A stretch of DNA of 64,000 nucleotides from Acidobacteriota bacterium (GTDB lineage Bacteria > Acidobacteriota > Vicinamibacteria > Fen-336), in assembly GCA_011526565.1 (NCBI GenBank), contig WYBL01000086.1, forward strand, positions 22,219 through 86,218. The letters run 5' to 3'. Shown one piece after another: positions 3,311 through 48,241 of the stretch. How positions within the stretch are numbered: the first letter of the stretch is position 1; every line of letters starts with the position of its first letter. The notes below the pieces were generated by a model, which worked only from the letters and a program-made list of their open reading frames with translations, searched no databases and was not told the origin of the DNA. The position numbers and the translations under genes are program-made.

Positions 3311-3511
3311 CTAGGGCTGGCGCCCCCGCTGCCCCGGCCCGCGGCGATCCCGAAGGGTGGCCTCCGCGTCGGCCAGGGCCTTGCGGACCATCTGCTGGGC
3401 CATGCGCTCGATCGGGTCGGCCGGTTCGGGCGGTGCCGGCGCCGCAGCCGCGAGTTCCCGGCGAAGCGCCTCGAGCGACCGGAACACCCGTGCCTTCGTT
3501 CGTTCGCTCAT
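3311..3511 (-). CDS. Small helical protein (66 aa), possible ribbon-helix-helix-like partner, translationally coupled to the upstream Ntn-hydrolase-like gene
   Basis: ATG at 3511 overlaps the stop of the upstream gene by 4 nt (ATGA); predicted beta-strand plus two helices (TKARVFRSLEALRREL ... PIERMAQQMVRKALADAEATLRDRR). Confidence 0.45.
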   Translation of the reverse strand: MSERTKARVFRSLEALRRELAAAAPAPPEPADPIERMAQQMVRKALADAEATLRDRRGPGQRGRQP

Positions 3512-5010
3512 TCCGAGTTCCCCTCGGCGACCGCACCCCCTCCGAAGTAGCGCTGCAGGAACTGGGGGTTGAGTTCGGCCTGGAAGTAGTGCTTTCGGCG
3601 CATCCAGATGAAGCCATCATGCTTGGAAATGACGGCCACGTCTATGGGGCCGCCCACCGTCTCCGGCCCGAGCGTGAAGCGGCGTTTCAGCGAAGTGAGC
3701 TGCACGAGCGCCTCCGCGAGCGCGGCCAGATCCTCCTTCCCGAGGTGCTGGACCGCCTCGATGACCGGGCCGATGCGAGCCTCGCGTCGGTGTTGATCCA
3801 TGGTGCGGTCGAGCGCGGCGAACATGCGCTCGCCGAGTGCCCGAACCTGGCCTCCAAGGTCCGCCACGGAACTCTCGCCGACCATCGCCTCGATCCGCCC
3901 CGGCAACTCCGTGACCAGAAGACGGCGCACCGTTTCCCGAAAGAGGTGCCGGGACTCCGGGTCCACTCCTTCCATGAACGTGGCCACCATGTCCCTCTGG
4001 GCGAAAGCCCGGACAGCAGCGCCCGCATCCAGGGTCAGGCGCGCAGGGGGCTCGCGGGCGATCTGTGGCCGCCCTTCGAGGCGCCCCCAGAGTCGGAGCG
4101 GGTGGAGCGCCGGCCGGTACTCGTCTCGACCGAAGCCCGCCACGACCAGCCCGGTGCTCGACGACAGCTCCTGGTCCTTCAGGCAGGAGAGCAGGCCCAG
4201 AGCCAGCGTCCGTTCCCGTTGCCCGGCGCTGATGCCGAGGTCCCCGAGCACGCGCTCGAAGGCCGTCTCCGCCAGCGGTCGCACCGAAGGATTCAACCGG
4301 GCCAGATCATCGGCCGCGAAACCGTCGAGGAACCCCTGGGCCGCCAGGTAGCTCTCACCCCGCTGGAGCACGTGGTCGAAGGCCACGGGGAGTTCGTCGA
4401 TCGACAGGCCAGAGGCTTCGATGGCCTGCCGGAGCTCCTGGGCCAGAGCGCGAAAGACGGCTTCCAGGGCGCTTGCGAGGAGCTGCGCTTCTTCCGACTC
4501 CGAGCAGAGCCTCTCGCCGGCGAGGAACTCGGCAAGAGCTTCGACGTATCCCTCGACCGTCGGGAAGGCCCGGGCCCCGAGCCGCACCCGGAACTGCTTG
4601 ATCACCGTCTCGGCCGGCAGTCCCGCGATCGAGGCGTTGCCGTAGACAATGATCCCGACCGGTTCGTGCTTCGAGAGCGCGAAGAGCTTGTTGACGGTGT
4701 TGTAGACCTTGCGCTGCGCGTCGGCGGGCGCCGTGATGGTCTCGATGGTGACCGCGCTGTCGGCGGCCAGAGCGACGGCTTGCGCGTTCAGGACGGCAAT
4801 CTCGGCAGTCAAGAACCCCTCCCCGCCGCGGGGAGGCGCGACCGGCCCCGATCCTCCGCCACCCGTCTGCCGCACCGGGACCGGCGCGGTATGCTCGGGT
4901 CGGCCTCGCAACTGTCGAGGCAGTTGTTGTTGCTGGGCCAGTCTCTTGGAGCAATCGGCACAGCCAAGCTCCTCACCGGTCACATGGACGGCCGCTTCCG
5001 GTACAACCAC
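3508..5010 (-). CDS. Divergent proteasome-beta/HslV-like Ntn-hydrolase-fold protein with large insertions (alternative TTG start at 4812 gives a 434-aa product beginning M-T-A-E-I-A-V)
   Basis: Motifs in order: TAEIAVLNAQAVALAADS (Thr1...Asp17-like), NKLFALSKHEPVGIIVYGNASIAG (Lys33-like and the GFAGxxADA-like strand), STGLVVAGFGRDEYRPALHPL, and C-terminal VGGPIDVAVISKHDGF (GGxIxVAVItkDG-like). TTG at 4812 is preceded by GGGGAGGGG; the ATG at 5010 would add a 66-aa low-complexity leader. Confidence 0.6.
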   Translation of the reverse strand: MVVPEAAVHVTGEELGCADCSKRLAQQQQLPRQLRGRPEHTAPVPVRQTGGGGSGPVAPPRGGEGFLTAEIAVLNAQAVALAADSAVTIETITAPADAQRKVYNTVNKLFALSKHEPVGIIVYGNASIAGLPAETVIKQFRVRLGARAFPTVEGYVEALAEFLAGERLCSESEEAQLLASALEAVFRALAQELRQAIEASGLSIDELPVAFDHVLQRGESYLAAQGFLDGFAADDLARLNPSVRPLAETAFERVLGDLGISAGQRERTLALGLLSCLKDQELSSSTGLVVAGFGRDEYRPALHPLRLWGRLEGRPQIAREPPARLTLDAGAAVRAFAQRDMVATFMEGVDPESRHLFRETVRRLLVTELPGRIEAMVGESSVADLGGQVRALGERMFAALDRTMDQHRREARIGPVIEAVQHLGKEDLAALAEALVQLTSLKRRFTLGPETVGGPIDVAVISKHDGFIWMRRKHYFQAELNPQFLQRYFGGGAVAEGNSE

Positions 5011-5284
5011 GTGGCTCCCGCAGGCATGCTCGGACTGGATACCGTGAATCAGCTCGACCCTCCGCGGCCTGGGAGAGGCCCTTGCCCGCGAAGCACTGCA
5101 GGAAGTCCACAGTGTTTTCCTCTCCGGTGAGCGCGAACCACTCGTGCCGTTCCATGGTCACCGGCCCTGAGCCAGCTTCCGCCACAGCCCCGTCGTCGTC
5201 TGGATCACCCGCACCAAGGTCTGGCGCGCCTCGATGGCCCGGTTCAAAGGCACCTCGCCATGAGCACCGGGAACGGTACGACCG

Positions 5285-5661
5285 CAGCGGTTCGTTGCCG
5301 TGGCCGTTTCGAGCTGTCGCTCCGCCGCCCACCGCGGAGCGCCGTGTCGAACCCTCGCGCCGGTAGGCGAAGCCCACGGCGCGCCACGTCGAGCTGGCGC
5401 TCCGTCACCCGAGCCGGCGGAGCGTCGGGTCGAACCCATCTGCGGAGCGTCGAGCTGATCTGCGAGGTGTCGATGCCGGCGAAGGGCACGGCCACGGTTC
5501 GACGCTGGTCTTAGCCCGCGTCAGCGGTGGCTCGACCCGGCGCACCGCCGGCCCAGGCGACGGTGCGTTCGTTCGACCCGGCGCGCGGCCGGCGCGGTCT
5601 CCCGCGCGCGGTTCGACTCGACACACCGCCGGAGTCCCGACGGTGTGCAGCTCGAGAACGG
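5285..5661 (+). repeat. Copy A of an about 350-bp GTCGAAC/GTTCGAC-rich repetitive element, directly abutting the 3' end of the Fic gene
   Basis: Near-identical over more than 240 bp to 6950-7190 (e.g. gggtcgaac..tctgcggagcgtcgagc..ggccacggttcgacgctgg..gtgcgttcgttcgacc..gcgcggttcga..cgagaacggc); multiple inverted heptamers. Confidence 0.8.
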
Positions 5662-6783
5662 CTAACCGGCCGCCGCGAACGGGTCGCCGACCAGCTTCTT
5701 TTCCGCGTATCGCTGTGCGAGTTCCCGCAACCCATCGGCAGCCACGTAGTGGCGCCCGCGCTTGTCGCCCACCGGCTGGAGATATCCCGCCTTCACGAGC
5801 GCGCGCAGGTCACGGCCCGCGGTGGCCTCGGTCACGTCAGCCGCGTTCCTGTACGTGGGATTCCGCACTCGGTAACCGATCGCAGCATCCGCGAGAGCCA
5901 GGACGCAACGATTCGGAAGGCCGCTCTGCTCGATGCGGCGCTCGAGTTCGTTGCAGATGTTTTCCATGGTGCGCTGCCGCCGCAGCAGGGTGTGCACCTG
6001 TCGATAGTGAGCCGTCAGGCAGAAACGGATCCACGGCCTGGCACTGTTCCCGGGGTTCCACGACCCCTGGCCGACTTCTGCCAACACACGGTAGTAGGCC
6101 TCGGTGTTTCGGCCCAGATATTCCTCGATGCTCGAGAAGACGGGCGGGATGTTCCCGCTTCGGGCCAGCACGAGCGTCTGAAGGCACCGGCCCATGCGCC
6201 CATTTCCGTCCGAGAACGGGTGGATCATCACGAGGTTCAGGTGAGCCATCGCGGCATCGACGAACGGTGAGTCCCCCGGCTCGGCCAGCGCGACCAACAG
6301 GGCCGAGATCAGGCTCGGGACAAGTTCGACAGGAGGGCCCTCGTAGACGCGCTCGCCGGTGCCGGACCTCTGCACGAAGATCGGCCCCGGGCGCCAGCGC
6401 CCGGGGTTCTTCGCCAGGTCATGGCCCGTCATCATGAAGTGGAGCGACTTCAGCAGCTCAGCCGAGTACTCGAAGTGGGCGTCGTCGGCCTTCTGAAGGA
6501 CCAGCGTCATCGCCTGGCGATACCCCGTGACCGCGGCCCAGGCTTCGTCCTTGGGCTCGAGCGGCTCCTCGCCCTCGACGGCCGCGACGGCATCGTCGAT
6601 CGTCACGTTGTAGCCTTCGATCGAGTTCGACCCCTGAACGGCTCGGGCAAAGGTGTTTCGCCTGAGCAGACCGCTCCAGCGCCGCGGCTGACTCAACGCG
6701 TACCGCAACTGGCTCCTGGCCTTGTCGATTTCGCCGATCACGGCCTGCTCGGCCTGGTCGGTCGGGGGTGCCTTGAAGATCAT
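5662..6783 (-). CDS. Fic family protein (class II Fic AMPylase with C-terminal winged-helix domain)
   Basis: Canonical Fic motif HPFSDGNGRMGR; N-terminal inhibitory motif SNSIEG ((S/T)xxxE(G/N)); 373 aa; C-terminal wHTH-like region. Confidence 0.9.
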   Translation of the reverse strand: MIFKAPPTDQAEQAVIGEIDKARSQLRYALSQPRRWSGLLRRNTFARAVQGSNSIEGYNVTIDDAVAAVEGEEPLEPKDEAWAAVTGYRQAMTLVLQKADDAHFEYSAELLKSLHFMMTGHDLAKNPGRWRPGPIFVQRSGTGERVYEGPPVELVPSLISALLVALAEPGDSPFVDAAMAHLNLVMIHPFSDGNGRMGRCLQTLVLARSGNIPPVFSSIEEYLGRNTEAYYRVLAEVGQGSWNPGNSARPWIRFCLTAHYRQVHTLLRRQRTMENICNELERRIEQSGLPNRCVLALADAAIGYRVRNPTYRNAADVTEATAGRDLRALVKAGYLQPVGDKRGRHYVAADGLRELAQRYAEKKLVGDPFAAAG

Positions 6784-6852
6784 GTCGGTTTGTCGGTTAC
6801 TTCATGCCCACGTGTCGGATAATAACAGGCATTCTGGACGACATTAACCGCG
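6784..6852 (-). promoter_or_regulatory. AT-rich putative promoter region of the Fic gene
   Basis: Local drop in GC (cggataataacaggcattctggacgacattaacc) immediately upstream of the Fic ATG; on the coding strand TTAATG-17nt-TATTAT lies about 45 nt upstream of the ATG. Confidence 0.3.
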
Positions 6853-6854
6853 AA

Positions 6855-7195
6855 TCGCGGACGTTGCCTTCGTTTCGAACCAGCGCTCCGCCGGCTGCCG
6901 GCGGAGCGTCGTGTCGAACCATCGCGCCACTCGGCGCAGCTCGTGGCGCGCCGGGTCGAACTCGTCTGCGGAGCGTCGAGCCGTCCTGCGGGGCGTCGAA
7001 GCCGGCGAACGACGCGGCCACGGTTCGACGCTGGTTGCGGCCCGGGTCAGTTGCAGCTCGACTCGGCGCACCGCTGGTTCCCGACGGTGCGTTCGTTCGA
7101 CCTGGGCGCGCGGCCGGCTACGGACACCCGCGCGCGGTTCGAGTCGGCACACCGTCGGGGTTGCAGCGGTGTGAAGGTTCGAGAACGGCCGCGTT
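6855..7195 (+). repeat. Copy B of the GTCGAAC/GTTCGAC-rich repetitive element (direct repeat of copy A)
   Basis: Same orientation and near-identical core as 5285-5661, ending ...ggttcgagaacggcc 22 bp before the FeS-gene start. Confidence 0.8.
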
Positions 7196-31450: not shown

Positions 31451-32746
31451 CTAGGGGCGGTCCTTGAACTGGCGATAGAGCCGGGTGTGGCGCGTCTCCA
31501 GCGACTGCTCCACGCCGTCGACGAACACGTGGCTCACCGTCGTCCGGTGGTCCATCGGGTCGCCGCTGGCGACGAACAGGCTGGCCGACTTGCCGACCTC
31601 CAGCGAGCCGAGCGAGTCCGCCACGCCGAAGATCTCGGCGGGAGACAGCGTGATCGCGCGCAGCGCCGCCTCGGCGGGCAGCCCGAAGGCCCGCGCCATC
31701 GCCGCCTCGAACGGCAGGTTGCGGGCGTTGGAGGGGTCGTTGGTGACGATCGCGAACGGCACCCCCGCCCGGTGCAGCGCCAGCACGTTCGTGTAGGCGG
31801 CGTCGTAGGCGTCGCCCTCGCGGCGCGGCAGCCGGTCGACGTTGGCGAGCACCGCGGCGCCTTTCGCCTTCAACTCGTCCGTGCAGCGCCAGGCCTCGAG
31901 CCCGCCGGCGACGATCGGCTTCAGGCCGTGCCGCGCCGCGAAGGCCAGCGCGCCGCGGATGTCGTCTTCCGCGTCGGCGCGGAACACCACGGGCACCTCG
32001 CCGCGCGCCGCGGGTGCCAGCGCCTCCATCGCGAGGTCCAGCTCCGGGGCGGCGGCCTGGCCCGCCGTGGCCGCGGCCTGCGCCGCCGCGTGGGCCTTCG
32101 CCCGCGCCAGCAGCTCGGCGAGCCGGGCCAGCGCCTTGTCCTGGTTCTTCCTGCGCTCCTTCTGGCGCTCGTCGAACGTCTTCAGCTCCGGCTCCGCGAA
32201 CATCTGCGCGAGATCGAAACCGCCGCGCCCGCTCGGGTAGACGACGTGCATCGCGGCCGGTGCCTTCGCGACCAGCGACGCCGGCGTCGAGCCGGCCAGC
32301 CGGATCAGCGCGCTCTGCCCGGAGACGAGGCCGCCGCCCGGCGCCGAGAGCACGTGGGTGAGGCCCGCGGCGCGCGCGACGGGGATCAGGTCGGAGTGCG
32401 GGTGGACCGCGATCCACGCCTTCGCGTGGGGGTTGACGTCGCCCGTCTCCGCGACGTCGACCGAGCCGGCCACCGAGCTGATCTCGGTCAGGCCCAGCGT
32501 GTTGAGGCCGTCGATCAGGCCCGGGTAGACGTGCCTTCCGGCCACGTCGACGACCCGCGCCCCGGCCGGCGCCGCGATGCTCGCGCCGATCGCGGCGATC
32601 CTGCCGTCGACGATCAGCACGTCGCCCTTCTCGAGCGCGGGGCCCGACACCGGCACCACGCGGCCGCCGCGCAGCAGCGTCGCTTCGCCGGCGGAGAGCG
32701 GGACCGCGGCGAGGGCCAGGAGCAGGCTCGTCAGCGCGCGCTTCAC
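31451..32746 (-). CDS. Amidohydrolase-superfamily paralog lacking the HxH metal-binding motif (predicted non-catalytic), secreted
   Basis: Signal peptide; YPGLIDGLNTLG in place of HxH; GTG start with GGGAGGTG RBS, GTGA overlap with upstream gene. Confidence 0.8.
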   Translation of the reverse strand: MKRALTSLLLALAAVPLSAGEATLLRGGRVVPVSGPALEKGDVLIVDGRIAAIGASIAAPAGARVVDVAGRHVYPGLIDGLNTLGLTEISSVAGSVDVAETGDVNPHAKAWIAVHPHSDLIPVARAAGLTHVLSAPGGGLVSGQSALIRLAGSTPASLVAKAPAAMHVVYPSGRGGFDLAQMFAEPELKTFDERQKERRKNQDKALARLAELLARAKAHAAAQAAATAGQAAAPELDLAMEALAPAARGEVPVVFRADAEDDIRGALAFAARHGLKPIVAGGLEAWRCTDELKAKGAAVLANVDRLPRREGDAYDAAYTNVLALHRAGVPFAIVTNDPSNARNLPFEAAMARAFGLPAEAALRAITLSPAEIFGVADSLGSLEVGKSASLFVASGDPMDHRTTVSHVFVDGVEQSLETRHTRLYRQFKDRP

Positions 32747-34026
32747 TGCGCACCTCCCGCCGCCGTCGCGGCGCTTCTCGCGGCGAGGTCCTGCGCGCGG
32801 TCGAAGCGCACGACGCCGTCGACCAGCGTCATCTCGACCCGGGCGTCGGGCGAGAAGGGGTGGGCGGAGAACACCGCGAGGTCCGCCTGCTTGCCGGCCT
32901 CGATCGAGCCGACCAGGTGGTCGACGCCGAGCTGCCAGGCGGGGTTCAGCGTGATCATCTTCAGCGCCTCCTGCTCCGGCACGCCGCCGTAGCGCACGGC
33001 CTTGGCCGCCTCCCAGTACAGCCGCCGCGCCAGCTCGTTGGAGTCCGAGTTGAGCGAGACGACGACGCCCTTCGAGTGCAGCACCGCCGCGTTGAAGGGG
33101 ATCGCGTCGTGGGCCTCGAGCTTGAACGCCCACCAGTCGGAGAAGGTCGAGGCGCCGGCCCCGTGCTTCGCGATCTCGGAGGCGACCTTGTAGCCCTCCA
33201 GCACGTGCTGGAACGTGCGCACCTTGAAACCGAGCTCCTCGGCCAGGCCGATCAGCATCAGGATCTCGTCCGAGCGGTAGCAGTGGGCGTGGATCAGCAC
33301 CTTGCCGTCGAGGATGTCGGCGATCGTCTCCAGTCGCAGGTCGCGCCGCGGCGGCACCGGCGCGATCGCGCCCCTGCCCGCCGCCTTCTTCTTCTCGTGC
33401 TGCTGCCACTCGCGGCGGTAGGCCTTCGCCTCCAGGAACGCCTCGCGGATCACCTCGGCGACGCCCATCCGGGTCGCCGGGTAGCGGCGCGGGCCGGGGG
33501 CGCTGAAGTTCGCGCGCTTGGGGTTCTCGCCGAGTGCGAACTTGATCCCGCGCGGCGCCTCGGCGAACACGAGCTGCGCCGGGTCGTCGACGCCCCAGCG
33601 CAGCTTGAGCACCGCGTTCTGGCCGCCGATCGCGTTGCACGAGCCGTGCAGCACGTTGATCGCGGTGACGCCGCCGGCGAGCTGGCGGTAGAGGTTCACG
33701 TCGCGGTGGTCGATCACGTCCGCGATCCGCACCTGCGCGGTGACCACGTCGGTGCACTCGTTGACGTTGTCCTCGATCGCCGCGTGCGAGTGGGCGTCGA
33801 TGATGCCGGGCATCACGAAGCGGCCCGCGCCGTCGATCACCTTCGCGCCGGCGGGCACCGTCACGTCGGCGCCGACCGCGGCGATCCTGCCGTCGCGGAT
33901 CAGCACCGTGGCCTTGTCGAGGTTGCCGGCCTTCGACACGGTGAGCACCGTGGCGCCGACGATCGCCGTCGTCTCGCCGGCGGCCGGCGCGGCCGCGAGC
34001 AGGGCGCAGAGCAGCAGGGCGTTCAT
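32743..34026 (-). CDS. Amidohydrolase-superfamily protein (catalytic; HxH present), secreted
   Basis: MPGIIDAHSHAAIED metal-binding motif, further His/Asp ligands; signal peptide. Confidence 0.85.
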   Translation of the reverse strand: MNALLLCALLAAAPAAGETTAIVGATVLTVSKAGNLDKATVLIRDGRIAAVGADVTVPAGAKVIDGAGRFVMPGIIDAHSHAAIEDNVNECTDVVTAQVRIADVIDHRDVNLYRQLAGGVTAINVLHGSCNAIGGQNAVLKLRWGVDDPAQLVFAEAPRGIKFALGENPKRANFSAPGPRRYPATRMGVAEVIREAFLEAKAYRREWQQHEKKKAAGRGAIAPVPPRRDLRLETIADILDGKVLIHAHCYRSDEILMLIGLAEELGFKVRTFQHVLEGYKVASEIAKHGAGASTFSDWWAFKLEAHDAIPFNAAVLHSKGVVVSLNSDSNELARRLYWEAAKAVRYGGVPEQEALKMITLNPAWQLGVDHLVGSIEAGKQADLAVFSAHPFSPDARVEMTLVDGVVRFDRAQDLAARSAATAAGGAQ

Positions 34027-35306
34027 CGCGCGACCTCCTCGCCGGCGCGCGGCCGGCCCTCGCCGCCGGGCGCGGCGGGCTTGTCCTCCGGTTCGAAGCG
34101 CTCTCCGTCGACGAACACCAGCTTCGCCTTCGTGTCCTTTGCGAACGGCTCGCCCGACCAGGCGACCAGGTTGGCCGCCTTGCCCGCCTCCAGGCTGCCC
34201 GTGCGGTCATCGATGCCGAGCGCCTCCGCGGCGCCCAGCGTGACCGCGCGCAGGGCGGCCTCCTGCGGCAGCCCGCGCTCGATCGCCTTGCGGATGCCGG
34301 CCACGAAATCGCGGCCGTGGGCGGAGACGAGGGCGAAGCGCAGGCCGGCCACGTGCAGCTTGCCGGGGTTGCGCTCGGCCGCCTCGATGTCGGCCTTCTC
34401 CTTCGCCTCGTCGGGCCCGCCGCCGAAGCTGAAGCCGGCCGCCCGCGGCGGGTCGTAGTTCGTGGTGACGAGCAGCGGCCGCCCGGCCTTCTTCAGCAGG
34501 TCGGCGACTTCCCACGCCTGCGGGACGCCGGCCAGGACGACCTTCACGCCGAACTCCTGGCCCAGCGCCAGCGCGCGGCGGACGTCGTTGAGGCGGCTAC
34601 AGGTGACGATCAGGGGCAGGCGACCCGCGAGGACGTCCTGCCAGGCCCGCGCCGAGGCGTCGAAACGCGGGCGCTCCTTGCCGCGCGGGTCGCGCTCGTA
34701 GTCGTCCCACTGCGCCTGCTGGTGGCGGGCGTCGAGCAGCGCCTGGCGCGCCCACGCGACGGTGCCCATCAGCGAGGCCGGGTACTGGCGGCGCAGCGTC
34801 GACAGGTGCAGGTGCAGCGCCGCGGGCTGGCGCCACACCAGCGCCTCCGCCGTCTCGCCCGCCAGGTTGAGCAGCACGCTGCGCCCGCCGGCGATGCCGT
34901 CGGGCGCCACCACCAGCGCGGTGGTGATGCCGGCGTCCCGCGCCTTGAGCGCATCCGCCAGCTTCACGCGGTCGAGCACGTCCGCCTCCGCGGCCAGCGG
35001 GTCCGGGGCATTCGTGGCCGCGCCGCCCGGTCCGCCCGCGGGGCGGGCCGGCAGGCCGATGCCCGAGAAGGCGTCGATCAGGCCCGGGGTCAGGGTCAGG
35101 CCCGAGGCGTCGATCACCCGCGCGCCGGCCGGCACCGCGACGTCGGCGCCGACCGCCGCGATCACGCCGCCGCGCAGGAGCACGGTGGCCTTCTCGAGCG
35201 CCGGGCCCGAGACCGGCAGCACGCGGCCGCCGACCAGCGCGACGACGGGCTCGGCCGTGGCCGCCGGGGCCAGGGCCAGCAGCACGGCGAGAAACACGAA
35301 TCTCAT
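34023..35306 (-). CDS. Amidohydrolase-superfamily paralog lacking the HxH motif (predicted non-catalytic), secreted
   Basis: TPGLIDAFSGIG in place of HxH; signal peptide MRFVFLAVLLALAPAATA; ATGA overlap with the downstream gene. Confidence 0.8.
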   Translation of the reverse strand: MRFVFLAVLLALAPAATAEPVVALVGGRVLPVSGPALEKATVLLRGGVIAAVGADVAVPAGARVIDASGLTLTPGLIDAFSGIGLPARPAGGPGGAATNAPDPLAAEADVLDRVKLADALKARDAGITTALVVAPDGIAGGRSVLLNLAGETAEALVWRQPAALHLHLSTLRRQYPASLMGTVAWARQALLDARHQQAQWDDYERDPRGKERPRFDASARAWQDVLAGRLPLIVTCSRLNDVRRALALGQEFGVKVVLAGVPQAWEVADLLKKAGRPLLVTTNYDPPRAAGFSFGGGPDEAKEKADIEAAERNPGKLHVAGLRFALVSAHGRDFVAGIRKAIERGLPQEAALRAVTLGAAEALGIDDRTGSLEAGKAANLVAWSGEPFAKDTKAKLVFVDGERFEPEDKPAAPGGEGRPRAGEEVAR

Positions 35307-36497: not shown

Positions 36498-36584
36498 GGA
36501 GGGCTAGCCTAACGGTAAGGCAGGAGCCTTGAAAGCTCCCGGGCCGCAAGGCCCTTGGGGGTTCGAATCCCTCGCCCTCCGCCA
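36498..36584 (+). tRNA. tRNA-Ser (anticodon UGA), 87 nt with long variable arm and encoded CCA
   Basis: Acceptor GGAGGGC/GCCCTCC, D-stem GCCT/AGGC, anticodon stem GGAGC/GCTCC with loop CTTGAAA, variable arm GGGCC-GCAA-GGCCC, T-loop TTCGAAT, discriminator G, CCA. Confidence 0.9.
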
Positions 36585-42515: not shown

Positions 42516-42621
42516 GCGTTCCCCCGTCGCTGTGGCGTCGTCGCCGCGCGTGTGGCGACGACGCCACGGGGATCACCAGGGCGTGAATGCAGATGTTCCG
42601 TGATTCTGCGATCATGATCTC

Positions 42622-42858
42622 ATGAGAGCGACGCTGACCATGACGGACCGGGGGGTCGTGACCCTTCCGGCTCGGCTGCGCAAGGCGCTGGCGCTGAAGC
42701 CGGACGAGCCGCTGATCGCCGAGGTCACTGCCCAGGGCCTGCTGTTGCGACCCGCCGTCACGCTGCCGATCGAGGTCTACGACGCCGCGCGCCTCGCCGA
42801 GTTCGAGTCAGAGGAGGCGGACCTCGCGAAGGTCCTCGCGCGCAAGAAGCGGCGCTGA
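42622..42858 (+). CDS. vapB: AbrB/MazE/SpoVT-family antitoxin (VapB-type)
   Basis: 78 aa, swapped-hairpin motif region (GVVTLPARLRKALAL). Confidence 0.75.
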   Translation: MRATLTMTDRGVVTLPARLRKALALKPDEPLIAEVTAQGLLLRPAVTLPIEVYDAARLAEFESEEADLAKVLARKKRR

Positions 42859-42866
42859 GCTCTCGC

Positions 42867-43277
42867 TTGCGGGTCTTCCTCGACGCCAACGTGCTGTTCT
42901 CGGCGGCGGCTCACGACGGCGCCGCGCGTGAACTCTGCAGGCGACTCCACGTCGCGGGACACGAGCTGGTCGCCGACGCCTTCGTGATCGAGGAAGCGCG
43001 CCGCAACCTCGCCGCGAAGGTCGGGGGGGCGACGGCCTGGGAGGCCATCCGCGCCCTGCTTGCCGAGACGCCGGCAGCGACCGCAGACCAGCGTCTTCCT
43101 CCCGAGGCGTCGGGCCTTGCAGAGAAGGATCGCCCGGTACTCGTCGCAGCGATCGTGCACCGCTGCGACTACCTGGTCACGGGTGATCGCACCCATTTCG
43201 GATTCCTGTTCGGGAGAAGGGTCGGCGGCGTCCGCGTCGCGTCGCTGCGTCAGCTCGCCGAGGCCCTGCTCCGCTGA
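42867..43277 (+). CDS. vapC: PIN-domain toxin VapC
   Basis: RVFLDANVLFSA N-terminus, TGD motif near C-terminus; TTG start 8 nt after antitoxin stop. Confidence 0.8.
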   Translation: MRVFLDANVLFSAAAHDGAARELCRRLHVAGHELVADAFVIEEARRNLAAKVGGATAWEAIRALLAETPAATADQRLPPEASGLAEKDRPVLVAAIVHRCDYLVTGDRTHFGFLFGRRVGGVRVASLRQLAEALLR

Positions 43278-43287
43278 TGAGCCGGGC

Positions 43288-44700
43288 TCAGCGGCGGGGT
43301 AGCGTCGCCAGCCGCTCGTAGAGGATCGCCGCCGAGCGCATCACCTTCTTCCAGTCGCCGAGGTGCAGGCTCTCGTTCTCCGAGTGCGCGGCCGAAGGCG
43401 GGTCCTCCACGCCCATCAGCACGCAGGGCGCGCCCAGCGCGTCGGCGAACGGCTTGACGAAGCCGATCGCGCCGCCCGCGCCCATCAGCACGGGCTCCTT
43501 GCCGAAGCCCTCGCGCAGGGCGGAGATCGCCGCCTCGAACGCGGGGCCCTCGGGCTCGCAGCTCCACGCCGACGAGGCGCGCACGAAGCGGGTCGTCACC
43601 TGGACGCCGAAGGGCGGGTCCTGGGTCAGCGCGCGCGCCAGCGCCTTCGCCGCCTTCTTCCCGTCCATGCCGGCGACGGTGCGCAGCGACAGCCGCGCGC
43701 GCGCCGCCTCGATGATCTGGTTCGAGGAGCCGGCGATCGGCCGCGCCTCGAACGCGATCACCGTCAGCGACGGCCGGAACCACAGCTTCTCGTAGGGCGT
43801 CGCCTTCGGGTCGCCCCACAACTTCACGCCCTTGAGCAGGCCGGCCTCGCGGCGGAAGCGGCGCTCGTCGAACGGCAGCGCGTCCATCCGCGCGCGCTCC
43901 TTCTTCGTCGGGCGCGGCACGCCGTCCATCAGGCCCGGCACGTCGAGCGAGCCGTCGGCGCGGGAGAGCCGCGCCAGCAGCCGCGCCAGCACCTGCACGG
44001 GGTCGGGCACCGGGCCGCCCCACATGCCGCTGTGGACGGGCTGCTCGAGCGCCCGCACCTCGACGTCGACCTGGGTCACGCCGCGCAGGCGGTAGGTGAG
44101 CGCGGGCACGCCGGTGTCGAAGTTGGAGGTGTCGGAGAGCACCAGCACGTCGGCGTCGAGGCGCGAGGCGTAGCGCTCGAGGAACTGCGGCAGGTGGGTG
44201 GAGCCGGTCTCCTCTTCGCCTTCGATCAGCACCTTGACGTTGAGCGGCAGCGCGCCGTGCTGTTCCACCCACGCGGCCAGCGCCGCGACGTGGGCGAGGA
44301 AGCCGCCCTTGTCGTCGGCGGCGCCGCGGCCGTAGAGCCGGCCCTTGCGCTCGACGGGTTCGAACGGCGGCGACAGCCACTTCTCGGGCCGGCCCGGCGG
44401 CACCACGTCGTGGTGGCCGTAGACGAGCACCGTCGGTTTGCCGGGGGCGTGCATCCAGTCGGCGTACACGTACGGCGGAACGCCGTCGATCTCGAGCAGC
44501 TCGACGTTGTCGAAGCCGCACTTGCGAAGCAGGGCGGCCGTGGCCTGCGCGGATTCGCGCATGGGTTCGGGAGGGAAGCCGGCGGCGGAGACGCCGGGGA
44601 TGCGGACGAGGTCGCACAGCGTGGACGTCCAGTCGTCGAAGCGGCGATCGAGATGGGCGAGCACGGCTTTGAGGGCGGGGGAGTGATTGATGCGTGCCAT
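43288..44700 (-). CDS. M20-family metallopeptidase (dipeptidase/ArgE/DapE-like)
   Basis: VLVYGHHDVVPP, GRGAADDKGG, EGEEETGS motifs; ATG at 44700; the ORF extension to 45018 runs into repeat copy C. Confidence 0.85.
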   Translation of the reverse strand: MARINHSPALKAVLAHLDRRFDDWTSTLCDLVRIPGVSAAGFPPEPMRESAQATAALLRKCGFDNVELLEIDGVPPYVYADWMHAPGKPTVLVYGHHDVVPPGRPEKWLSPPFEPVERKGRLYGRGAADDKGGFLAHVAALAAWVEQHGALPLNVKVLIEGEEETGSTHLPQFLERYASRLDADVLVLSDTSNFDTGVPALTYRLRGVTQVDVEVRALEQPVHSGMWGGPVPDPVQVLARLLARLSRADGSLDVPGLMDGVPRPTKKERARMDALPFDERRFRREAGLLKGVKLWGDPKATPYEKLWFRPSLTVIAFEARPIAGSSNQIIEAARARLSLRTVAGMDGKKAAKALARALTQDPPFGVQVTTRFVRASSAWSCEPEGPAFEAAISALREGFGKEPVLMGAGGAIGFVKPFADALGAPCVLMGVEDPPSAAHSENESLHLGDWKKVMRSAAILYERLATLPRR

Positions 44701-45057
44701 GAAGGGGAGCGTACCGCCAGAACCCGACCGGCGCAGCCCGGCCGCCCGTGCGCGGTCGGGTACCGCGGCGCACCGCCCCGACTGCGGAGCGGCGAGTGCC
44801 GCGCTCCGTTGCCCCGACCGTGCGCCGGTCGCTTGCCGTGGCGCATCGCCCCGACCGGCGATAGCCCGCCCCGTCCGTTCCAGTCGCGCCGTTTCGCTTC
44901 GACGTCGGCTCACGGTTCGACCCGGCGCTCCGCTGCTCAACCCGGCGGAGCGTTCGTTCGACGTCAGCGCGCGGCGGTACCCGGCCGCGCGCGGTTCGAC
45001 TGGGCGCTCCGACTGCAAACGCCGGAGCGACGGTTCGAAAACGGGCGTGAGGGTGGG
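44701..45057 (+). repeat. Copy C (more diverged) of the GTCGAAC/GTTCGAC-rich repetitive element, intergenic
   Basis: Shares gcgttcgttcgac, gcgcggttcgac, cggttcgaaaacgg blocks with copies A/B; lies between two same-strand genes. Confidence 0.6.
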
Positions 45058-46647
45058 TCAGCGCCCCTTGCGGGTCTCTTCCCACAGCCAGCGTGCGGCT
45101 TCGACGGGGGTGTGCTTGTCCTCGTCGCGGTCGACCATCAGGTTCGCCAGGCGCATGAGATCGACCGGGATGCGGCCCACCAGCGGCGCGAGCGCCCGCA
45201 CGACCCGGGCGTCGCCGGCGGCGCGAGGCGAGAGCAGCAGCACGGCGTCGTAGGGAGGAAACGCCTGCTGCGGGTCGGAGAGCACGGCCAGGTCGAAGGC
45301 CGCGATCCGCCCGTCGCTCGAGAAGGCGGTGATGACGTCCACGTGGCCCTGGCGCACGGCGTCGTACATGAAGGTGGAGTCGAAGCTGACCCGCCCGGCG
45401 AAGTCGAGGCCGTACGTGCGGCGCAAGCGCTGCCACTCGGGGCGGTGGAAGAACTCGTAGTCGCTCCCCAGCTTGAGGCGCGGGGCCGCGCCGGCCAGGT
45501 CGGCCACGCTGCGCACGTTCAACTCGCGGGCGTGGTCGCGGCGCATGGCCAGCGCATAGGTGTTCTCGAAGCCCAGCGCGCCCAGTTGCCGGATGCCGTG
45601 CTCGCGGGCCAGCCAGGCCGCGGTCTGGGCCTCGACCCGCCAGCCCGCCTCGGGCTCCGGGCGCCGCATGTAGTTGGCCCAGATGGTGCCCGTGTAGTCG
45701 ACGTAGACGTCGAGGTCGCCGTTGCGGAGGGCGTCGAAGGCCACGGTCGAGCCCAGGCTGTCCACGCGCTCCACCGGCAGGGCGGCAGCCTCCAGCCGCG
45801 CCCGCAGCAGCGCGGCCAGGATGTACTGCTCGGTGAACGTCTTGCTGCCCACCCGCAGGGGAGCGCTCGCGGCGGGCTCCGACGGCTCGACGCTGCCGCC
45901 CGGCTCGTCCTCCGCGGCCCGGTACGCTCCCGCCGCGCCAGGCGCTCCCGAGAACAGGCGCGGCGCGAGGGCCCCGCCTCCGAAGACGATCGCCAGCCCG
46001 ACGAGGGCGCCCCACTGGCGGGCCCGGCTGCGGCGGACGATGCCCCTCTCGAGCCCGGACAGCAGCAGGTCGAGCGTGACCGCCAGGCTTGCGGCCGCCC
46101 CGCAGCCCACCAGCACCGCGGTCCAGTTGCGGGTCTGCAGCCCCGCGAAGATGTAGTTGCCGAGGCTCGGCTGGCCCACGGGGGTGCTCAGCGTGGCCAC
46201 TCCCACCACCCAGACGGTCGCGGTGCGGATGCCGGCCACGATCACCGGGAGCGCCAGCGGCAGCTCGACCTGTAGCAGCACCTGGAGCGGCGTCATGCCG
46301 ACGCCCACCGCGGCCTCGCGCACGGCCGGGTCGACCTCCAGGATGCCGGTGACGGCGTTCTGCAGGATCGGCAGCACGCTGTAGAGCACGAGCGCCAGCA
46401 GCGCCGGCCAGAACCCGAAGGCCCCCAGCAGCGGGACCATGAGCGCCAGCAGCGCCAGGCTGGGAACCGCCTGGACGACCCCGGCCACCGCCAGCACGGG
46501 CCAGCGCAGGCGCACCACGCGGACGAGGACCAGGGCCAGAGGAAGGCTGATCGCGAGCCCGAGCCCCAGGGCGACGGCGCTGATCACGATGTGCTCGCCG
46601 AACAGCGACGGCAGCCGGGCGAGCTGCAACCGCAGGTTCTCGCTCAC
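45058..46647 (-). CDS. Osmoprotectant-type (glycine betaine/choline, OpuB/ProWX-like) ABC transporter, fused permease and substrate-binding domain
   Basis: N-terminal 6-TM permease with EAA-like region, C-terminal OpuAC-like SBP; 529 aa. Confidence 0.85.
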   Translation of the reverse strand: MSENLRLQLARLPSLFGEHIVISAVALGLGLAISLPLALVLVRVVRLRWPVLAVAGVVQAVPSLALLALMVPLLGAFGFWPALLALVLYSVLPILQNAVTGILEVDPAVREAAVGVGMTPLQVLLQVELPLALPVIVAGIRTATVWVVGVATLSTPVGQPSLGNYIFAGLQTRNWTAVLVGCGAAASLAVTLDLLLSGLERGIVRRSRARQWGALVGLAIVFGGGALAPRLFSGAPGAAGAYRAAEDEPGGSVEPSEPAASAPLRVGSKTFTEQYILAALLRARLEAAALPVERVDSLGSTVAFDALRNGDLDVYVDYTGTIWANYMRRPEPEAGWRVEAQTAAWLAREHGIRQLGALGFENTYALAMRRDHARELNVRSVADLAGAAPRLKLGSDYEFFHRPEWQRLRRTYGLDFAGRVSFDSTFMYDAVRQGHVDVITAFSSDGRIAAFDLAVLSDPQQAFPPYDAVLLLSPRAAGDARVVRALAPLVGRIPVDLMRLANLMVDRDEDKHTPVEAARWLWEETRKGR

Positions 46648-47411
46648 GGGGCGCCGTGCGCCAGCGCCTCGAGCCGCTCGATCTGGCGCCGGGGCGTGGC
46701 CATCAGCTCGGCGACGACGGGCCGGGCCGGCGCGTTGAGCAGTTCGGCGGGAGGACCGACCTGGACCAGCTCGCCGTCCTGCAGCAGGGCGATGCGGTCC
46801 GCCAGCAGCAGCGCCTCGGTGACGTCGTGGGTGACCATCACGGTGGTGAGGCCCAGGTCGCGATGGATGCGGGCGTACTCGGCCTGCAGGCGGTCGCGCG
46901 TCATCGGGTCCAGCGCCCCGAACGGCTCGTCGAGCAGCATGATCTGCGGGCGGGCCGCCAGCGCCCGCGCCACGCCGACGCGCTGCTGCTGGCCGCCGGA
47001 CAGGTGGCGGGGGAACCTCCCGCGGAACTCGGCGGGCGGCAGCCCCAGCAGCTCGAGCAGCTCGTCCGTGCGCTCGGCGATCTGCCCCGCGCCCCAGCCG
47101 AGCAGGCGCGGGACGACGCCGACGTTCTCGGCGAGCGTCATGTGCGGAAACAGGCCGAAGCGCTGGAAGACGTAGCCGATCGAACGCCGCAGGCGGACGG
47201 CGTCGAGCGAGTGCACGTCCCGGCCGTCGATCAGGACCCGGCCGCTGTCGGCGTCCAGCAGCCGGTTGACGAGCTTGAGGGTCGTCGTCTTGCCGCAGCC
47301 GGAGGGCCCCAAAAGCACCAGGAACTCGCCCGCCGGGACCTCGAGGCTGAGGCTCCGCAGCGCGAAGGCGCCGGCGCCGTAGCTCCGGCAGACGTCCTCG
47401 AAGCGGATCAT
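46644..47411 (-). CDS. ABC transporter ATP-binding protein (no CBS domains)
   Basis: Walker A GPSGCGKTT, signature LSGGQQQR, Walker B LLDEP; ATGA overlap with upstream methyltransferase gene. Confidence 0.9.
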   Translation of the reverse strand: MIRFEDVCRSYGAGAFALRSLSLEVPAGEFLVLLGPSGCGKTTTLKLVNRLLDADSGRVLIDGRDVHSLDAVRLRRSIGYVFQRFGLFPHMTLAENVGVVPRLLGWGAGQIAERTDELLELLGLPPAEFRGRFPRHLSGGQQQRVGVARALAARPQIMLLDEPFGALDPMTRDRLQAEYARIHRDLGLTTVMVTHDVTEALLLADRIALLQDGELVQVGPPAELLNAPARPVVAELMATPRRQIERLEALAHGAP

Positions 47412-48241
47412 GCCTCGACGAGCAGGGACTCCGGCACCGGCTTCAGCTTGGTGAGGACCATGGCCATGTAGTACAGGGGGCGGCCGTCGATGCCGATGCG
47501 GTGACGGTAGCGGCGGCTGGCCTCGAGCCGCGCGTACTGCTCGTCGATCATGCGGCGGATCAGGGCCGCGAACCCGTGCGTGTAGCGCGGCTCGAGGAAG
47601 TCGGCCTTGATGTTGAAGGCCAGCAGGCCCCCGTCGGACACGAACTCGACGGCATTCCAGTACAACCGCGGCGGAATGTCGCCGAAGCCCAGCGCCGCCA
47701 CGCAGGTGAGCGCGTTCGCCGCGAAGCGGCTCAGCCGCTGCCGCGTTTCGGCCGCCACGTCCAGCAGGTCGGCCGCCAGGTAGTCCTCGTACGCACCCGG
47801 CCGATCTCTCAGCGCGGCTTCGCGAGCCTCCTCCAGGATGTCGACTCCCAGCGCGTGCGGCATGCCGTACTCGCGCAGGCGCTCGGCCACGATGCCGTTC
47901 CCGGCCCCCAGGTCGAGGACGCGCAGGCTGTCGCCGTCGAGGCCGGCCTCGCGCCGCACTTCGTCCAGCAACGCCACGACGCGCGAGGGCGAACGGCATT
48001 CGAGCAGGCCGTAGAAGAGGTGCTCGTAGAGCCCCGGGCGACGGTAGATCTCGCCGTAGTCGTGGAAGCGCAGCCGCTTCCACTCGCCGTCCTCGAGGAT
48101 CTCGCACCACTCCTCGGCCTGGCTCAGGCGACCCGTTCCGTCGGCTTCGGGGAAGCGCACCCGGGCCTCCCACTCGGGCTTCCTGAAGTTTCGGGTCGTG
48201 GGGGTGCGATGCGGGGATGCGCCGGAAACGGCTGCTTCCAT
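47408..48241 (-). CDS. Class I SAM-dependent methyltransferase
   Basis: Motif I VLDLGAGNG; 277 aa; translationally coupled to the ABC transporter genes. Confidence 0.75.
   Translation of the reverse strand: MEAAVSGASPHRTPTTRNFRKPEWEARVRFPEADGTGRLSQAEEWCEILEDGEWKRLRFHDYGEIYRRPGLYEHLFYGLLECRSPSRVVALLDEVRREAGLDGDSLRVLDLGAGNGIVAERLREYGMPHALGVDILEEAREAALRDRPGAYEDYLAADLLDVAAETRQRLSRFAANALTCVAALGFGDIPPRLYWNAVEFVSDGGLLAFNIKADFLEPRYTHGFAALIRRMIDEQYARLEASRRYRHRIGIDGRPLYYMAMVLTKLKPVPESLLVEA

What the first reader, a model, noticed from the sequence alone, without database searches (positions are those of the whole stretch)
5285..5661. Family of intergenic repetitive elements built from inverted GTCGAAC/GTTCGAC heptamers (three copies in window: 5285-5661, 6855-7195, 44701-45057)
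Three non-coding segments of about 340-380 bp share blocks such as ggagcgtcgngtcgaacc, ggccacggttcgacgctgg, gtgcgttcgttcgacc, gcgcggttcga and a terminal (g)gttcga(g/a)aacgg. The heptamer GTCGAAC and its reverse complement GTTCGAC recur 6-8 times per copy in alternating orientation. This would allow extensive intramolecular hairpin formation, as in REP/BIME-like or MITE-like elements or structured RNAs. All copies are intergenic, one of them between two same-strand genes, and spurious ORFs through them are repeated at the protein level.
Basis: seen in the sequence. Interest (0 to 1): 0.6.

Follow-up and report, generated by a model that had tools for sequence, protein, structure and literature searches.

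The report
Hairpin arrays flanking Avd-like gene modules
The three repeats are real arrays of about 40-bp GC hairpin units joined by a conserved GTTCGAC linker, and they are not free-standing: they are the non-coding front part, here mostly orphaned, of a small multi-copy module of Vicinamibacteria that carries a four-helix-bundle (Avd-like) gene and sits where defence genes are swapped.

Summary
A (5262-5661), B (6836-7188) and C (44701-45044) are arrays of a ~40-bp unit: linker GTTCGAC, 3-5 nt, a perfect 7-10 bp GC stem and a free 5-14 nt loop. Each array ends in a cap, GGTTCGARAACGG. The linkers run in blocks of one orientation, not alternately.

The family is not a local duplication. Related arrays occur at about ten other loci in at least four other Vicinamibacteria assemblies. 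Rfam has no match.

Stems covary: 95.5% of cells pair, and all 7 pairs show double changes. Between orthologous arrays the stems change at 2% of sites, linkers at 7% and loops at 30%.

Arrays lie upstream of a conserved ~190-nt leader that sequesters the Shine-Dalgarno site, followed by a PF05635 four-helix-bundle gene. Paralogous copies share about 0.7 kb that ends at the stop codon.

In the window:
- A keeps a truncated leader and a gene remnant.
- B keeps a leader stub.
- C has lost leader and gene cleanly; two relatives still have them.

The slot between A and B holds a SoFic defence gene here. In a relative it holds a toxin-antitoxin pair and a HIRAN gene.

Function is inferred, not shown. 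The most likely role is a strand-symmetric structured barrier at gene ends, with a linker that some protein or RNase reads. I rate it a new variant of REP/BIME/BOX-like repeats.

The parts
5158..5241 (-). C-terminal remnant of a PF05635 four-helix-bundle (4HB) gene: ...RAIEARQTLVRVIQTTTGLWRKLAQGR*
   Evidence: window 5175-5230 matches the L082 4HB gene at 82%. ORF translation. The L082 gene hits PF05635 at E=1e-16.
5262..5303 (-). Truncated start of the module leader (ACGGCCACGGCAACGAACCGCTGCGGTCGTACCGTTCCCGGTG)
   Evidence: Aligns with the leader starts of L093, L094, L095 and L108. Also found by BLAST to L031 and L082.
5304..5314 (-). A, left cap (CCGTTTCGAGC, the reverse complement of GCTCGAAACGG)
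5318..5435 (-). A, left arm: three units with stems CGCTCCGC, CGCGCCG and CGCTCCG and linkers GTCGAAC/GTCGAGC
   Evidence: Unit parsing. Orthologous to L094 9662-9779.
5436..5529 (.). A, centre: half-units (TCTGCGGAGCGTCGAGC / TCTGCGAGGTGTCGATGC) and the junction of the two arms
5530..5647 (+). A, right arm: three units with stems CGCACCG, GCGCGCGG and CACACCG and linkers GCTCGAC/GTTCGAC
5650..5685 (+). A, right cap GCTCGAGAACGG plus about 24 nt of leader-start-like sequence. This overlaps the last codons and the TAG stop (5662-5664) of the Fic gene.
   Evidence: The orthologous arm in L094 gives the unrelated HIRAN gene the same ...AAAG* ending.
5662..6783 (-). Cargo between A and B: a Fic/DOC gene of the SoFic defence type. 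Its GC3 of 0.84 is lower than that of neighbouring genes.
   Evidence: Pfam Fic 4.7e-12. PADLOC SoFic 1.1e-49. GC3.
6836..6870 (-). B, stub of about 35 nt of leader start outside the left cap
6871..6881 (-). B, left cap (CGTTTCGAACC)
6884..6961 (-). B, left arm: two units with stems CGCTCCGCC(G) and CGCGCCAC
6962..7055 (.). B, centre with half-units
7056..7173 (+). B, right arm: three units with stems CGCACCG, GCGCGCGG and CACACCG
7176..7188 (+). B, right cap GGTTCGAGAACGG, 28 nt before the ATG (7217) of the Fer4/NrfD oxidoreductase gene
44715..44900 (+). C, distal part: hairpin units of a second linker type (CCCCGAC). The stems are kept by compensatory change against L093.
44915..45029 (+). 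C, three GTTCGAC units with stems CGCTCCGC, GCGCGCGGC and CGCTCCG
   Evidence: Orthologous arrays are in L082 and L093.
45032..45044 (+). C, cap GGTTCGAAAACGG. At 45044|45047, L093 carries 553 bp of leader plus 4HB gene, and L082 also carries them.

Best explanation
What it is (well supported). Each element is an array of a ~40-bp unit: linker GTTCGAC, 3-5 nt, a perfect 7-10 bp G+C stem, a free loop of 5-14 nt, then 1-4 nt. The outer end is closed by a cap, GGTTCGARAACGG, which in L094 and L095 pairs with CGAACC about 15 nt further on.

The arrays are the non-coding front part of a ~0.7-kb module that is multi-copy in Vicinamibacteria (Acidobacteriota). The module reads: array, cap, then a ~190-nt structured leader whose long helix pairs an anti-Shine-Dalgarno stretch (CCTCCTCG) with the Shine-Dalgarno site (CGAGGAGG), then a 116-126 aa PF05635 four-helix-bundle (Avd-like) gene.

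The three window copies are relics of such modules:
- A is two arrays joined tail to tail, plus a truncated leader and a gene remnant.
- B is the same with only a leader stub.
- C is one array from which leader and gene were deleted.

How it most likely works (inferred). The hairpins act as strand-symmetric structured barriers at gene ends. They would stop or trim transcripts arriving from neighbouring genes, so the module's gene is expressed only on its own terms. This is the same logic as the terminator plus RBS-occluding stem-loop of IS200 (from my own knowledge of that element). The conserved single-stranded linker would be a site read by a protein or RNase.

As conserved repeated DNA, the arrays also form the fixed frame between which defence cargo is exchanged between strains.
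For: Anatomy and enrichment:
-.
- Of 51 intervals defined by linkers alone, 47 hold a perfect stem of at least 7 bp, against 4.9% of shuffles.

Covariation over 48 units:
- 95.5% of cells pair.
- All 7 pairs show double changes: 57 cells against 16.6 +/- 2.9 in shuffles (0 of 500 shuffles reach it).
- Slid controls pair at no more than 53%.

Orthologous arrays in genomes 90-97% identical in the flanks:
- Stems change at 5/224 sites, and 4 of the 5 changes are compensatory.
- Linkers change at 8/112, loops at 59/195 and spacers at 24-27%.
- Fisher tests: stem vs loop 8e-17, linker vs loop 8e-7.

Link to the 4HB module:
- Both related array loci found by DNA pattern alone (L031/L081 and L082) lie next to a PF05635 gene.
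- 8 of the 9 distinct Vicinamibacteria 4HB loci fetched by protein (L093, L094, L095, L099, L101, L107, L108 and others) carry an array upstream.
- Modules at different loci share 85-89% over 703-726 bp, ending within 1 nt of the stop codon.
- Units occur nowhere else in the window or in related loci.

Relic status:
- A.
- C: a 553-bp indel against L093.

Leader helix:
- It has compensatory pairs and G-U wobbles, whereas array stems have 2 G-U in 336 cells. The near-absence of wobble in array stems fits a requirement to pair on both strands.

Position at gene ends:
- The cap or its inverse lies 0-13 nt after the stop codons of Fic, HIRAN, DUF3368, the ABC permease, enolase and prfA.

Cargo turnover:
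- SoFic here, against a toxin-antitoxin pair plus a PDC-M03B (HIRAN) gene in L094.
- 5.5 kb of defence-like genes lie beside the 4HB gene in L096/L097 but not in L099.
Against: - No transcript data exist, so the function is inference.
- No unit is followed by a T/U run, so these are not canonical intrinsic terminators.
- Loops of 8-14 nt are large for terminator hairpins.
- A pure barrier role does not explain why the 7-nt linker is conserved.
- The one-armed array C folds no better than shuffles (z = -1.0).
- Perfect stems could in part be kept by a mutational process (quasi-palindrome correction by template switching) rather than by selection.
- Units are related by descent, so covariation counts are not independent events.
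- Genome-wide copy number could not be measured.
Confidence: 0.45

Rival explanations
1. The arrays are binding platforms for the adjacent four-helix-bundle protein. Avd-like proteins bind nucleic acids. The protein would recognise GTTCGAC linkers presented between hairpins, on DNA or RNA, for autoregulation or for assembling a nucleoprotein complex.
For: - Array and 4HB gene are strictly linked physically, across loci and genomes.
- The linker is conserved far beyond loops and spacers: 7% against 30%.
- Arrays that have lost their own gene (B, C) remain under constraint, as expected for a factor acting in trans.
Against: - No binding data exist.
- The nucleic-acid specificity of stand-alone PF05635 proteins is unknown.
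- A more distant 4HB locus (L103, 49% identity) keeps the SD-sequestering hairpin but has no such array.
Confidence: 0.2
2. REP/REPIN-like mobile DNA. Each unit is a REP analogue (conserved short motif plus palindrome) that a RAYT-type HUH transposase, encoded elsewhere in the genome, cuts and copies as single-stranded hairpin DNA.
For: - Unit size, the palindrome with a conserved flanking motif, and clustering in both orientations.
- Watson-Crick-only stems fit DNA hairpins.
- Array length varies between orthologous loci: L096 has about one dead unit where L099 has three to four.
Against: - No solo units in 64 kb plus about 200 kb of related DNA.
- Orthologous arrays are stable across genomes 90-97% identical in the flanks.
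- No Y1 transposase among the annotated proteins of the window or of any fetched locus (and the gene tables).
- Whole arrays, not single units, are homologous between loci.
Confidence: 0.13
3. Recombination sites of a cassette system, an attC-like role. The folded hairpin and cap would be recognised by an unidentified recombinase, and genes (4HB, SoFic, toxin-antitoxin, HIRAN) would be inserted or excised at the cap.
For: - Breakpoints between related genomes recur at or within about 35 nt of caps. Examples: window C against L093, the A/B slot against L094, and L096 against L099.
- The cargo is of the typical cassette kind, toxin-antitoxin and defence genes.
- ORFs run into the element: the 4HB homology ends at its stop codon, and Fic and HIRAN share an element-encoded ...AAAG* tail.
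- Structure is conserved while sequence is free to vary, as in attC.
Against: - No integrase or other recombinase in the window or in any fetched locus.
- GTTCGAC does not fit the attC core GTTRRRY.
- Cargo orientation is mixed.
- Any variable slot ends where its conserved flanks begin, so breakpoints at caps are partly trivial.
- At the L095/L109 locus the replaced segment has one junction after a gene stop, not at a cap.
Confidence: 0.12
4. No function. The arrays are decaying leftovers of local duplications, with stems kept perfect by hairpin-templated repair (quasi-palindrome correction) and linkers kept alike by gene conversion between units.
For: - Half-units and variable unit number point to slippage or unequal exchange.
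- The absence of G-U intermediates fits a templated mechanism.
Against: - Stems differ between neighbouring units while linkers stay the same. Gene conversion tracts would homogenise whole units, loops included.
- The family has persisted across divergent Vicinamibacteria, with 4HB identity down to 63-66% (L101, L107), always with perfect stems.
- Array starts are placed regularly, immediately after stop codons.
Confidence: 0.08

Closest known systems
REP clusters / BIMEs and REPINs of Enterobacteria and Pseudomonas (from my own knowledge; REPIN/RAYT papers listed, e.g. PMC3116915)
   Same: Short G+C-rich extragenic palindromes with a conserved short flanking motif. They are clustered in both orientations between gene ends. 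Known effects are on transcript ends and on protein binding.
   Different: - Units here are not dispersed singly and occur only in arrays tied to a gene module.
- Loops are long and free to vary, and stems are perfect.
- No RAYT was seen.
- Copy density appears low.
- No sequence similarity.
BOX elements of Streptococcus pneumoniae, boxA-(boxB)n-boxC (from my own knowledge)
   Same: Modular build: distinct end modules enclosing a variable number of ~45-nt internal units, with the whole folding into hairpins. They are intergenic.
   Different: BOX elements are high-copy and free-standing, are not coupled to a gene, and are unrelated in sequence and host phylum.
5' end architecture of IS200: a terminator hairpin against outside transcription plus a stem-loop occluding the RBS (from my own knowledge)
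   Same: Hairpin(s) upstream, followed by a helix that sequesters the ribosome-binding site of the element's only gene. Copies are dispersed with sharp ends.
   Different: The gene here is a 4HB protein with no known catalytic motif, not a transposase. There is a multi-unit array instead of one terminator. No U-tract is present.
Integron attC sites and cassette arrays
   Same: Sites with conserved structure and free sequence at the 3' ends of cargo genes that include toxin-antitoxin and defence functions. ORFs can end inside the site.
   Different: No IntI is present. No R/L box consensus (GTTRRRY/RYYYAAC). Units are arrayed. Cargo orientation is mixed.
PF05635 family: DGR accessory protein Avd, and the ORF inside 23S rRNA intervening sequences of Leptospira (PF05635 and Avd are linked in PMC10053308; the IVS facts are from my own knowledge)
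   Same: The module's protein belongs to this family (PF05635 1e-16, TIGR02436 3.6e-17). Like the IVS ORF, it is embedded in hairpin-forming sequence with inverted ends and has a patchy distribution.
   Different: No reverse transcriptase or template/variable repeat pair at any locus. The module is not inside an rRNA gene.

Membership tests
REP / REPIN-RAYT | Short extragenic imperfect palindrome with a conserved flanking oligonucleotide | tested here: met
   Unit is GTTCGAC plus a 7-10 bp palindrome. 47 of 51 linker-defined intervals hold one.
REP / REPIN-RAYT | Many dispersed copies, including singlets or doublets, throughout the genome | tested here: not met
   All units in the 64-kb window and in about 200 kb of related loci lie in arrays next to 4HB modules or their relics. 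The background rate is 7 chance hits in 589 kb of unrelated DNA. A whole-genome count was not possible.
REP / REPIN-RAYT | A cognate RAYT (Y1 HUH transposase) gene flanked by the repeats | not testable with these tools
   None among the proteins of the window or of the fetched loci. The rest of the genome could not be read.
MITE | Terminal inverted repeats | tested here: met
   A, B, their L094 orthologues and L107 carry CCGTTYTCGARC ... GYTCGARAACGG at the two ends.
MITE | Target-site duplication flanking each copy | tested here: not met
   No direct repeat flanks A, B or L107.
MITE | Copies at unrelated loci with the same two boundaries | tested here: inconclusive
   What recurs with sharp boundaries is the ~0.7-kb array-leader-4HB module, not the array alone.
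Integron attC / cassette | Core sites RYYYAAC and GTTRRRY forming the R box | tested here: not met
   The linker GTTCGAC has C where R is required. Flanking linkers are direct repeats, not inverted.
Integron attC / cassette | An IntI tyrosine recombinase with attI next to the array | tested here: not met
   No recombinase in the window or in the gene tables of about 15 related loci.
Intrinsic (Rho-independent) terminator | G+C hairpin followed by a T/U run | tested here: not met
   No terminator-like site in any array.
Any Rfam RNA family | Covariance-model score at the gathering threshold | tested here: not met
   Only tRNAs are found. Sub-threshold hits are noise at E = 0.26-0.52.
CRISPR array | Constant repeats of 23-50 nt alternating with unique spacers of similar length | tested here: not met
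   The only variable parts are the 5-14 nt loops, and the stems differ between neighbouring units. No cas genes appear in the annotated neighbours.
Diversity-generating retroelement (for the 4HB gene) | Reverse transcriptase plus a template/variable repeat pair next to avd | tested here: not met
   No RT (PF00078) in any gene table.
PF05635 / TIGR02436 four-helix-bundle protein (for the module's gene) | Profile score above the curated cut-off | tested here: met
   PF05635 scores 61.5 bits (cut-off 33.8). TIGR02436 scores 62.6 bits (cut-off 24).

The most novel reading that the evidence does not exclude
Array, leader and Avd-like gene together form a previously undescribed kind of small selfish module. 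It would mark, and perhaps create, exchange slots for defence genes. On this reading the hairpin-plus-GTTCGAC units are the DNA or RNA sites acted on by the four-helix-bundle protein or by an unknown partner recombinase. That would be a cassette platform with no integrase of a known type.
Probability: 0.18. Interest if true: 0.8.

Novelty: new variant of a known kind. Interest (0 to 1): 0.6.

Why it matters
Stand-alone PF05635 ('23S rRNA intervening sequence' / Avd-like) genes are very common in bacterial genomes and have no known role outside diversity-generating retroelements.

This work supplies three things:
- A defined, conserved genetic context for one subfamily: a hairpin array under purifying selection, an RNA leader that hides the ribosome-binding site, and sharp module ends.
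- A recurrent position beside swapped defence genes (SoFic, AbiEi, toxin-antitoxin pairs, PADLOC candidate systems).
- Concrete experiments that follow from it: protein-unit binding, termination assays and transcript-end mapping.

It also documents a structured repeat family in Acidobacteriota. I found no description of such repeats in that phylum.

Tried and rejected
- The first genome-collection pattern (linkers only) was too loose.
- The metagenome pattern found only two loci, both in one assembly.
- BLAST of A against plasmids found nothing. tblastn of the 4HB protein against plasmids found only distant cyanobacterial genes.
- Viral scans for the leader and for the unit gave zero hits and one chance hit inside a coding region.
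- Periodic TCGA spacing as a signal was rejected: TCGA is too common in this genome. The bare stem pattern was not enriched window-wide.
- CRISPR-like reading, rejected: the only variable parts are 5-14 nt loops.
- tRNA T-loop mimicry (GGTTCGA), rejected: the motif is not enclosed by a stem. One array does lie near a tRNA gene (L101).
- 'Polarity / decay' idea, dropped. I considered that distal units with C-rich linkers (GCCCGAC, CCCCGAC) are old GTTCGAC units drifting to GC. The CCCCGMC-type units have perfect 8-9 bp stems and look like a second unit type.
- Hypervariable loops, rejected: loop divergence of about 30% is close to what neutral sites would show between genomes 90-97% identical.
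- Thermodynamic support is weak for one-armed arrays.
- A TAG stop as part of the element, rejected: spacing to the cap varies from 0 to 13 nt and other stop codons occur.

Full report
**Observation**

The window is about 72% G+C. The three segments exist where stated. A and B align over their whole length, with 81% identity in the ungapped blocks. C shares only its right ~150 nt with them. GTTCGAC or its complement occurs 36 times in the window against 12.0 +/- 3.6 in shuffles, and 12 of the 36 lie in the three elements. The identical A-Fic-B region is found in 10 contigs from different sequencing runs at 100% identity over 2,501 bp, so it is not an assembly artefact.

Two details need correcting. 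Exact heptamers number 5, 4 and 3 per copy. They also sit in blocks of one orientation, not in alternation.

**Anatomy**

Each element is an array of a ~40-bp unit:
- linker GTTCGAC, with variants GCTCGAC, GTTCGAG and GTTCGAA;
- 3-5 nt of spacer;
- a perfect 7-10 bp G+C stem;
- a loop of 5-14 nt;
- the complementary stem arm;
- 1-4 nt before the next linker.

The outer end of an array is a cap, GGTTCGARAACGG. A and B each consist of two arrays joined tail to tail with the caps outward, so their ends are inverted repeats (CCGTTTCGAGC ... GCTCGAGAACGG). Half-units lie in the centre. C is one array. Its distal half is built from a second unit type with CCCCGAC linkers.

Single-stranded A folds better than shuffles (z = -5.0). 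One-armed C does not (z = -1.0). The case for structure therefore rests on comparison between sequences, not on folding energy.

**Structure is conserved**

I defined intervals by linkers alone, which avoids choosing them for their stems. Of 51 such intervals, 47 hold a perfect stem of at least 7 bp, against 4.9% of shuffles.

On an alignment of 48 distinct units:
- 95.5% of cells form a standard pair.
- All seven pairs show changes on both sides: 57 cells against 16.6 +/- 2.9 in shuffles, reached by 0 of 500 shuffles.
- Sliding the partner columns drops pairing to 53% or less.
- Only 2 of 336 cells are G-U.

Stem sequences differ widely between loci (CGCTCCG, GCGCGCGG, CGCACCG, CGCAGCG, CGGTCCG, CGCGGCG, GCCGGTGC, GCCTGTGC, GGTCCGCGC), yet they are always self-complementary. 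The units are related by descent, so these counts are not independent events.

**Selection**

Three related genomes provide orthologous arrays. Their flanks are 95-97% (L082) and 90-93% (L093, L094) identical to the window. Across six array comparisons:

| Part | Sites changed | Rate |
|---|---|---|
| Stems | 5/224 | 2% |
| Linkers | 8/112 | 7% |
| Loops | 59/195 | 30% |
| Spacers | - | 24-27% |

Four of the five stem changes form two compensatory pairs. Fisher tests give 8e-17 for stem against loop and 8e-7 for linker against loop. Loops and spacers therefore drift at about the neutral rate, while stems and linkers are held. B is constrained even though neither genome has a gene module beside it.

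**What the arrays belong to**

Pattern scans of public collections found related arrays only in Vicinamibacteria assemblies: L031 and L081 (MAG ACD1 and JAANMX01) and L082. These loci were found by DNA pattern alone, and in both of them the array lies next to a small gene of family PF05635 (E = 1e-16; TIGR02436 'four helix bundle protein'). This is the family of the DGR accessory protein Avd and of the ORF in 23S rRNA intervening sequences.

I then fetched nine distinct loci for close homologues of that protein (63-85% identity, annotated as Vicinamibacteria). Eight of them show the same order: array, cap, CAACGGCCRCGAACCGCTGC, a leader of about 190 nt, ATG. These are L093, L094, L095, L099, L101, L107 and L108. 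L096/L098 keep only about one dead unit. A more distant homologue (L103, 49% identity) lacks the array but keeps the hairpin over its ribosome-binding site.

With a strict unit definition, every unit in the window and in about 200 kb of related DNA lies in such an array. By comparison, 589 kb of unrelated loci give 7 chance hits.

**The module**

Copies at different genomic loci (L031, L095, L108) share 85-89% identity over 703-726 bp. That stretch covers three to four units, the cap, the leader and the whole gene, and the homology stops within 1 nt of the stop codon.

The leader is highly conserved. Its consensus fold pairs GCGCGTCACCTCCTCG with CGAGGAGGTGACGCGC directly before the ATG. This helix has compensatory changes at three pairs, and G-U wobbles occur in its other helices. 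That pattern is expected for an RNA structure hiding the Shine-Dalgarno site, and it contrasts with the wobble-free array stems. Rfam has no family for either the array or the leader.

**The window copies are relics**

- **A.** On the minus strand the order is: Fic gene, TAG, cap, array, array, cap, about 40 nt of leader, then the last 27 codons of a 4HB gene at 5158-5241.
- **B.** A ~35-nt leader stub remains outside its left cap. Its right cap lies 28 nt before the ATG of a Fer4/NrfD oxidoreductase gene.
- **C.** L093 has 553 bp of leader plus gene between the cap and the sequence GTGAGGG, where the window has two bases. L082 also has the gene. Both relatives carry it and the window keeps the TGA, so loss in the window lineage is the simpler reading.

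**Neighbourhood**

The slot between A and B holds a SoFic-type Fic gene in the window (PADLOC 1e-49). In L094 the same slot holds a DUF3368/UPF0175 toxin-antitoxin pair and a HIRAN protein (PDC-M03B, 2e-82).

At the enolase locus, L099 has the 4HB gene followed by a second array that abuts the enolase stop codon. L096/L097 have an AbiEi gene upstream and 5.5 kb of defence-like genes between the 4HB stop and that second array. These genes are a Schlafen-type helicase and PDC-M36A.

At another locus, a 1.2-kb segment containing the module replaces two genes found in L109 and L112. One junction lies 4 nt after the 4HB stop.

The cap or its inverse lies 0-13 nt after the stop codons of Fic, HIRAN, DUF3368, the ABC permease, enolase and prfA. 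No integrase, transposase or reverse transcriptase was seen in the window or in any fetched locus (and the gene tables).

**Mechanism**

Shown: the unit structure, its conservation, its linkage to the module, and the relic status of A, B and C.

Inferred: the function. I favour strand-symmetric structured barriers at gene ends, which would insulate the module from neighbouring transcription. Three observations point this way:
- Arrays start directly after stop codons.
- Stems must pair on both strands, since they contain no wobble.
- The module also hides its ribosome-binding site, which is the arrangement known from IS200.

The conserved linker points to an additional sequence-specific reader, such as a protein or an RNase acting on the only A/T-containing single-stranded stretch. 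Against this view, there is no U-tract, the loops are large, and there are no transcript data.

Rival explanations are:
- a binding platform for the 4HB protein;
- REP/RAYT-type mobile DNA;
- attC-like recombination sites;
- a non-functional by-product kept perfect by templated repair.

Overall confidence is about 0.85 for what it is and about 0.35 for how it works.

**Comparison and novelty**

In build, the arrays resemble BIME/REP clusters and pneumococcal BOX elements. They fail the REP test of dispersed copies, the MITE test of target-site duplication, the attC core consensus, and the intrinsic-terminator definition. A literature search found no description of these repeats or of hairpin arrays tied to PF05635 genes. 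I rate the finding as a new variant of a known kind of repeat, with an unexpected and testable link to a very common gene family of unknown function.

Noticed in passing
L093 9795-10000; L094 9796-10000; L095 9796-10003; window remnant 5262-5303: A conserved ~190-nt structured leader lies upstream of PF05635 genes. A long helix pairs an anti-SD stretch with the SD site, with compensatory changes. No Rfam family matches it. It may be an undescribed cis-regulatory RNA, and a more distant homologue (L103) also hides its SD in a long hairpin.
   Followed up: partly
window 5662-5685 and L094 9412-9430: The unrelated cargo genes Fic (window) and HIRAN (L094) both end ...AAAG-TAG. The ending is encoded by the same ~17 nt of element-derived sequence next to the orthologous cap. 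Both proteins run 10-20 residues past the end of their profile matches.
   Followed up: partly
window 42571-43290: A VapC/PIN toxin gene (42867-43277) with an upstream small ORF (42622-42858, MazE-like in L093) is present here and in L093. It is absent from the 95%-identical L082, where 8 bp stand in its place.
   Followed up: partly
window 3311-4812 (minus strand): A 434-aa ORF and a 66-aa ORF lie beside the 4HB remnant. Neither has a hit in Pfam, NCBIfam or PADLOC. L094 holds only decayed fragments of the 434-aa gene (79-88% over about 340 bp), so it is another variable gene of the slot.
   Followed up: partly
window 45058-48241: The glycine-betaine-type ABC transporter genes (permease/OpuAC fusion and ATPase) and a methyltransferase are present here and in L093. 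They are missing in L082, where the 4HB gene and one solo hairpin unit adjoin the TrmO-like gene.
   Followed up: partly
L101 7451-7532: A tRNA gene on the opposite strand lies about 100 nt from the distal end of a hairpin array. The units of that array have quite different stems (GCCGGTGC, GCCTGTGC, GCCTGCGC) and 8-nt loops.
   Followed up: no
L095 9140-9620 (minus strand): A lower-GC ORF of about 150 aa, not called by the gene finder, is divergent from the 4HB module and travels with it in the segment that replaces two genes of L109/L112.
   Followed up: no
window 32501-35198: Three 135-nt direct repeats, 70-79% identical and spaced 1286 and 1277 bp apart, lie in a region that includes an amidohydrolase-family gene (32746-34206). 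They probably reflect tandem paralogous genes.
   Followed up: no
L108 7476-7640; L099 7540-7680; window 44715-44900: A second hairpin-unit type with C-rich linkers (CACCCCGCCC / CCCCGAC) and perfect 8-9 bp stems sits distal to the GTTCGAC units in several arrays. Its relation to the main unit type is unexplained.
   Followed up: partly
window 36498-36581: A tRNA gene (58 bits). It is the only Rfam match in the window.
   Followed up: no
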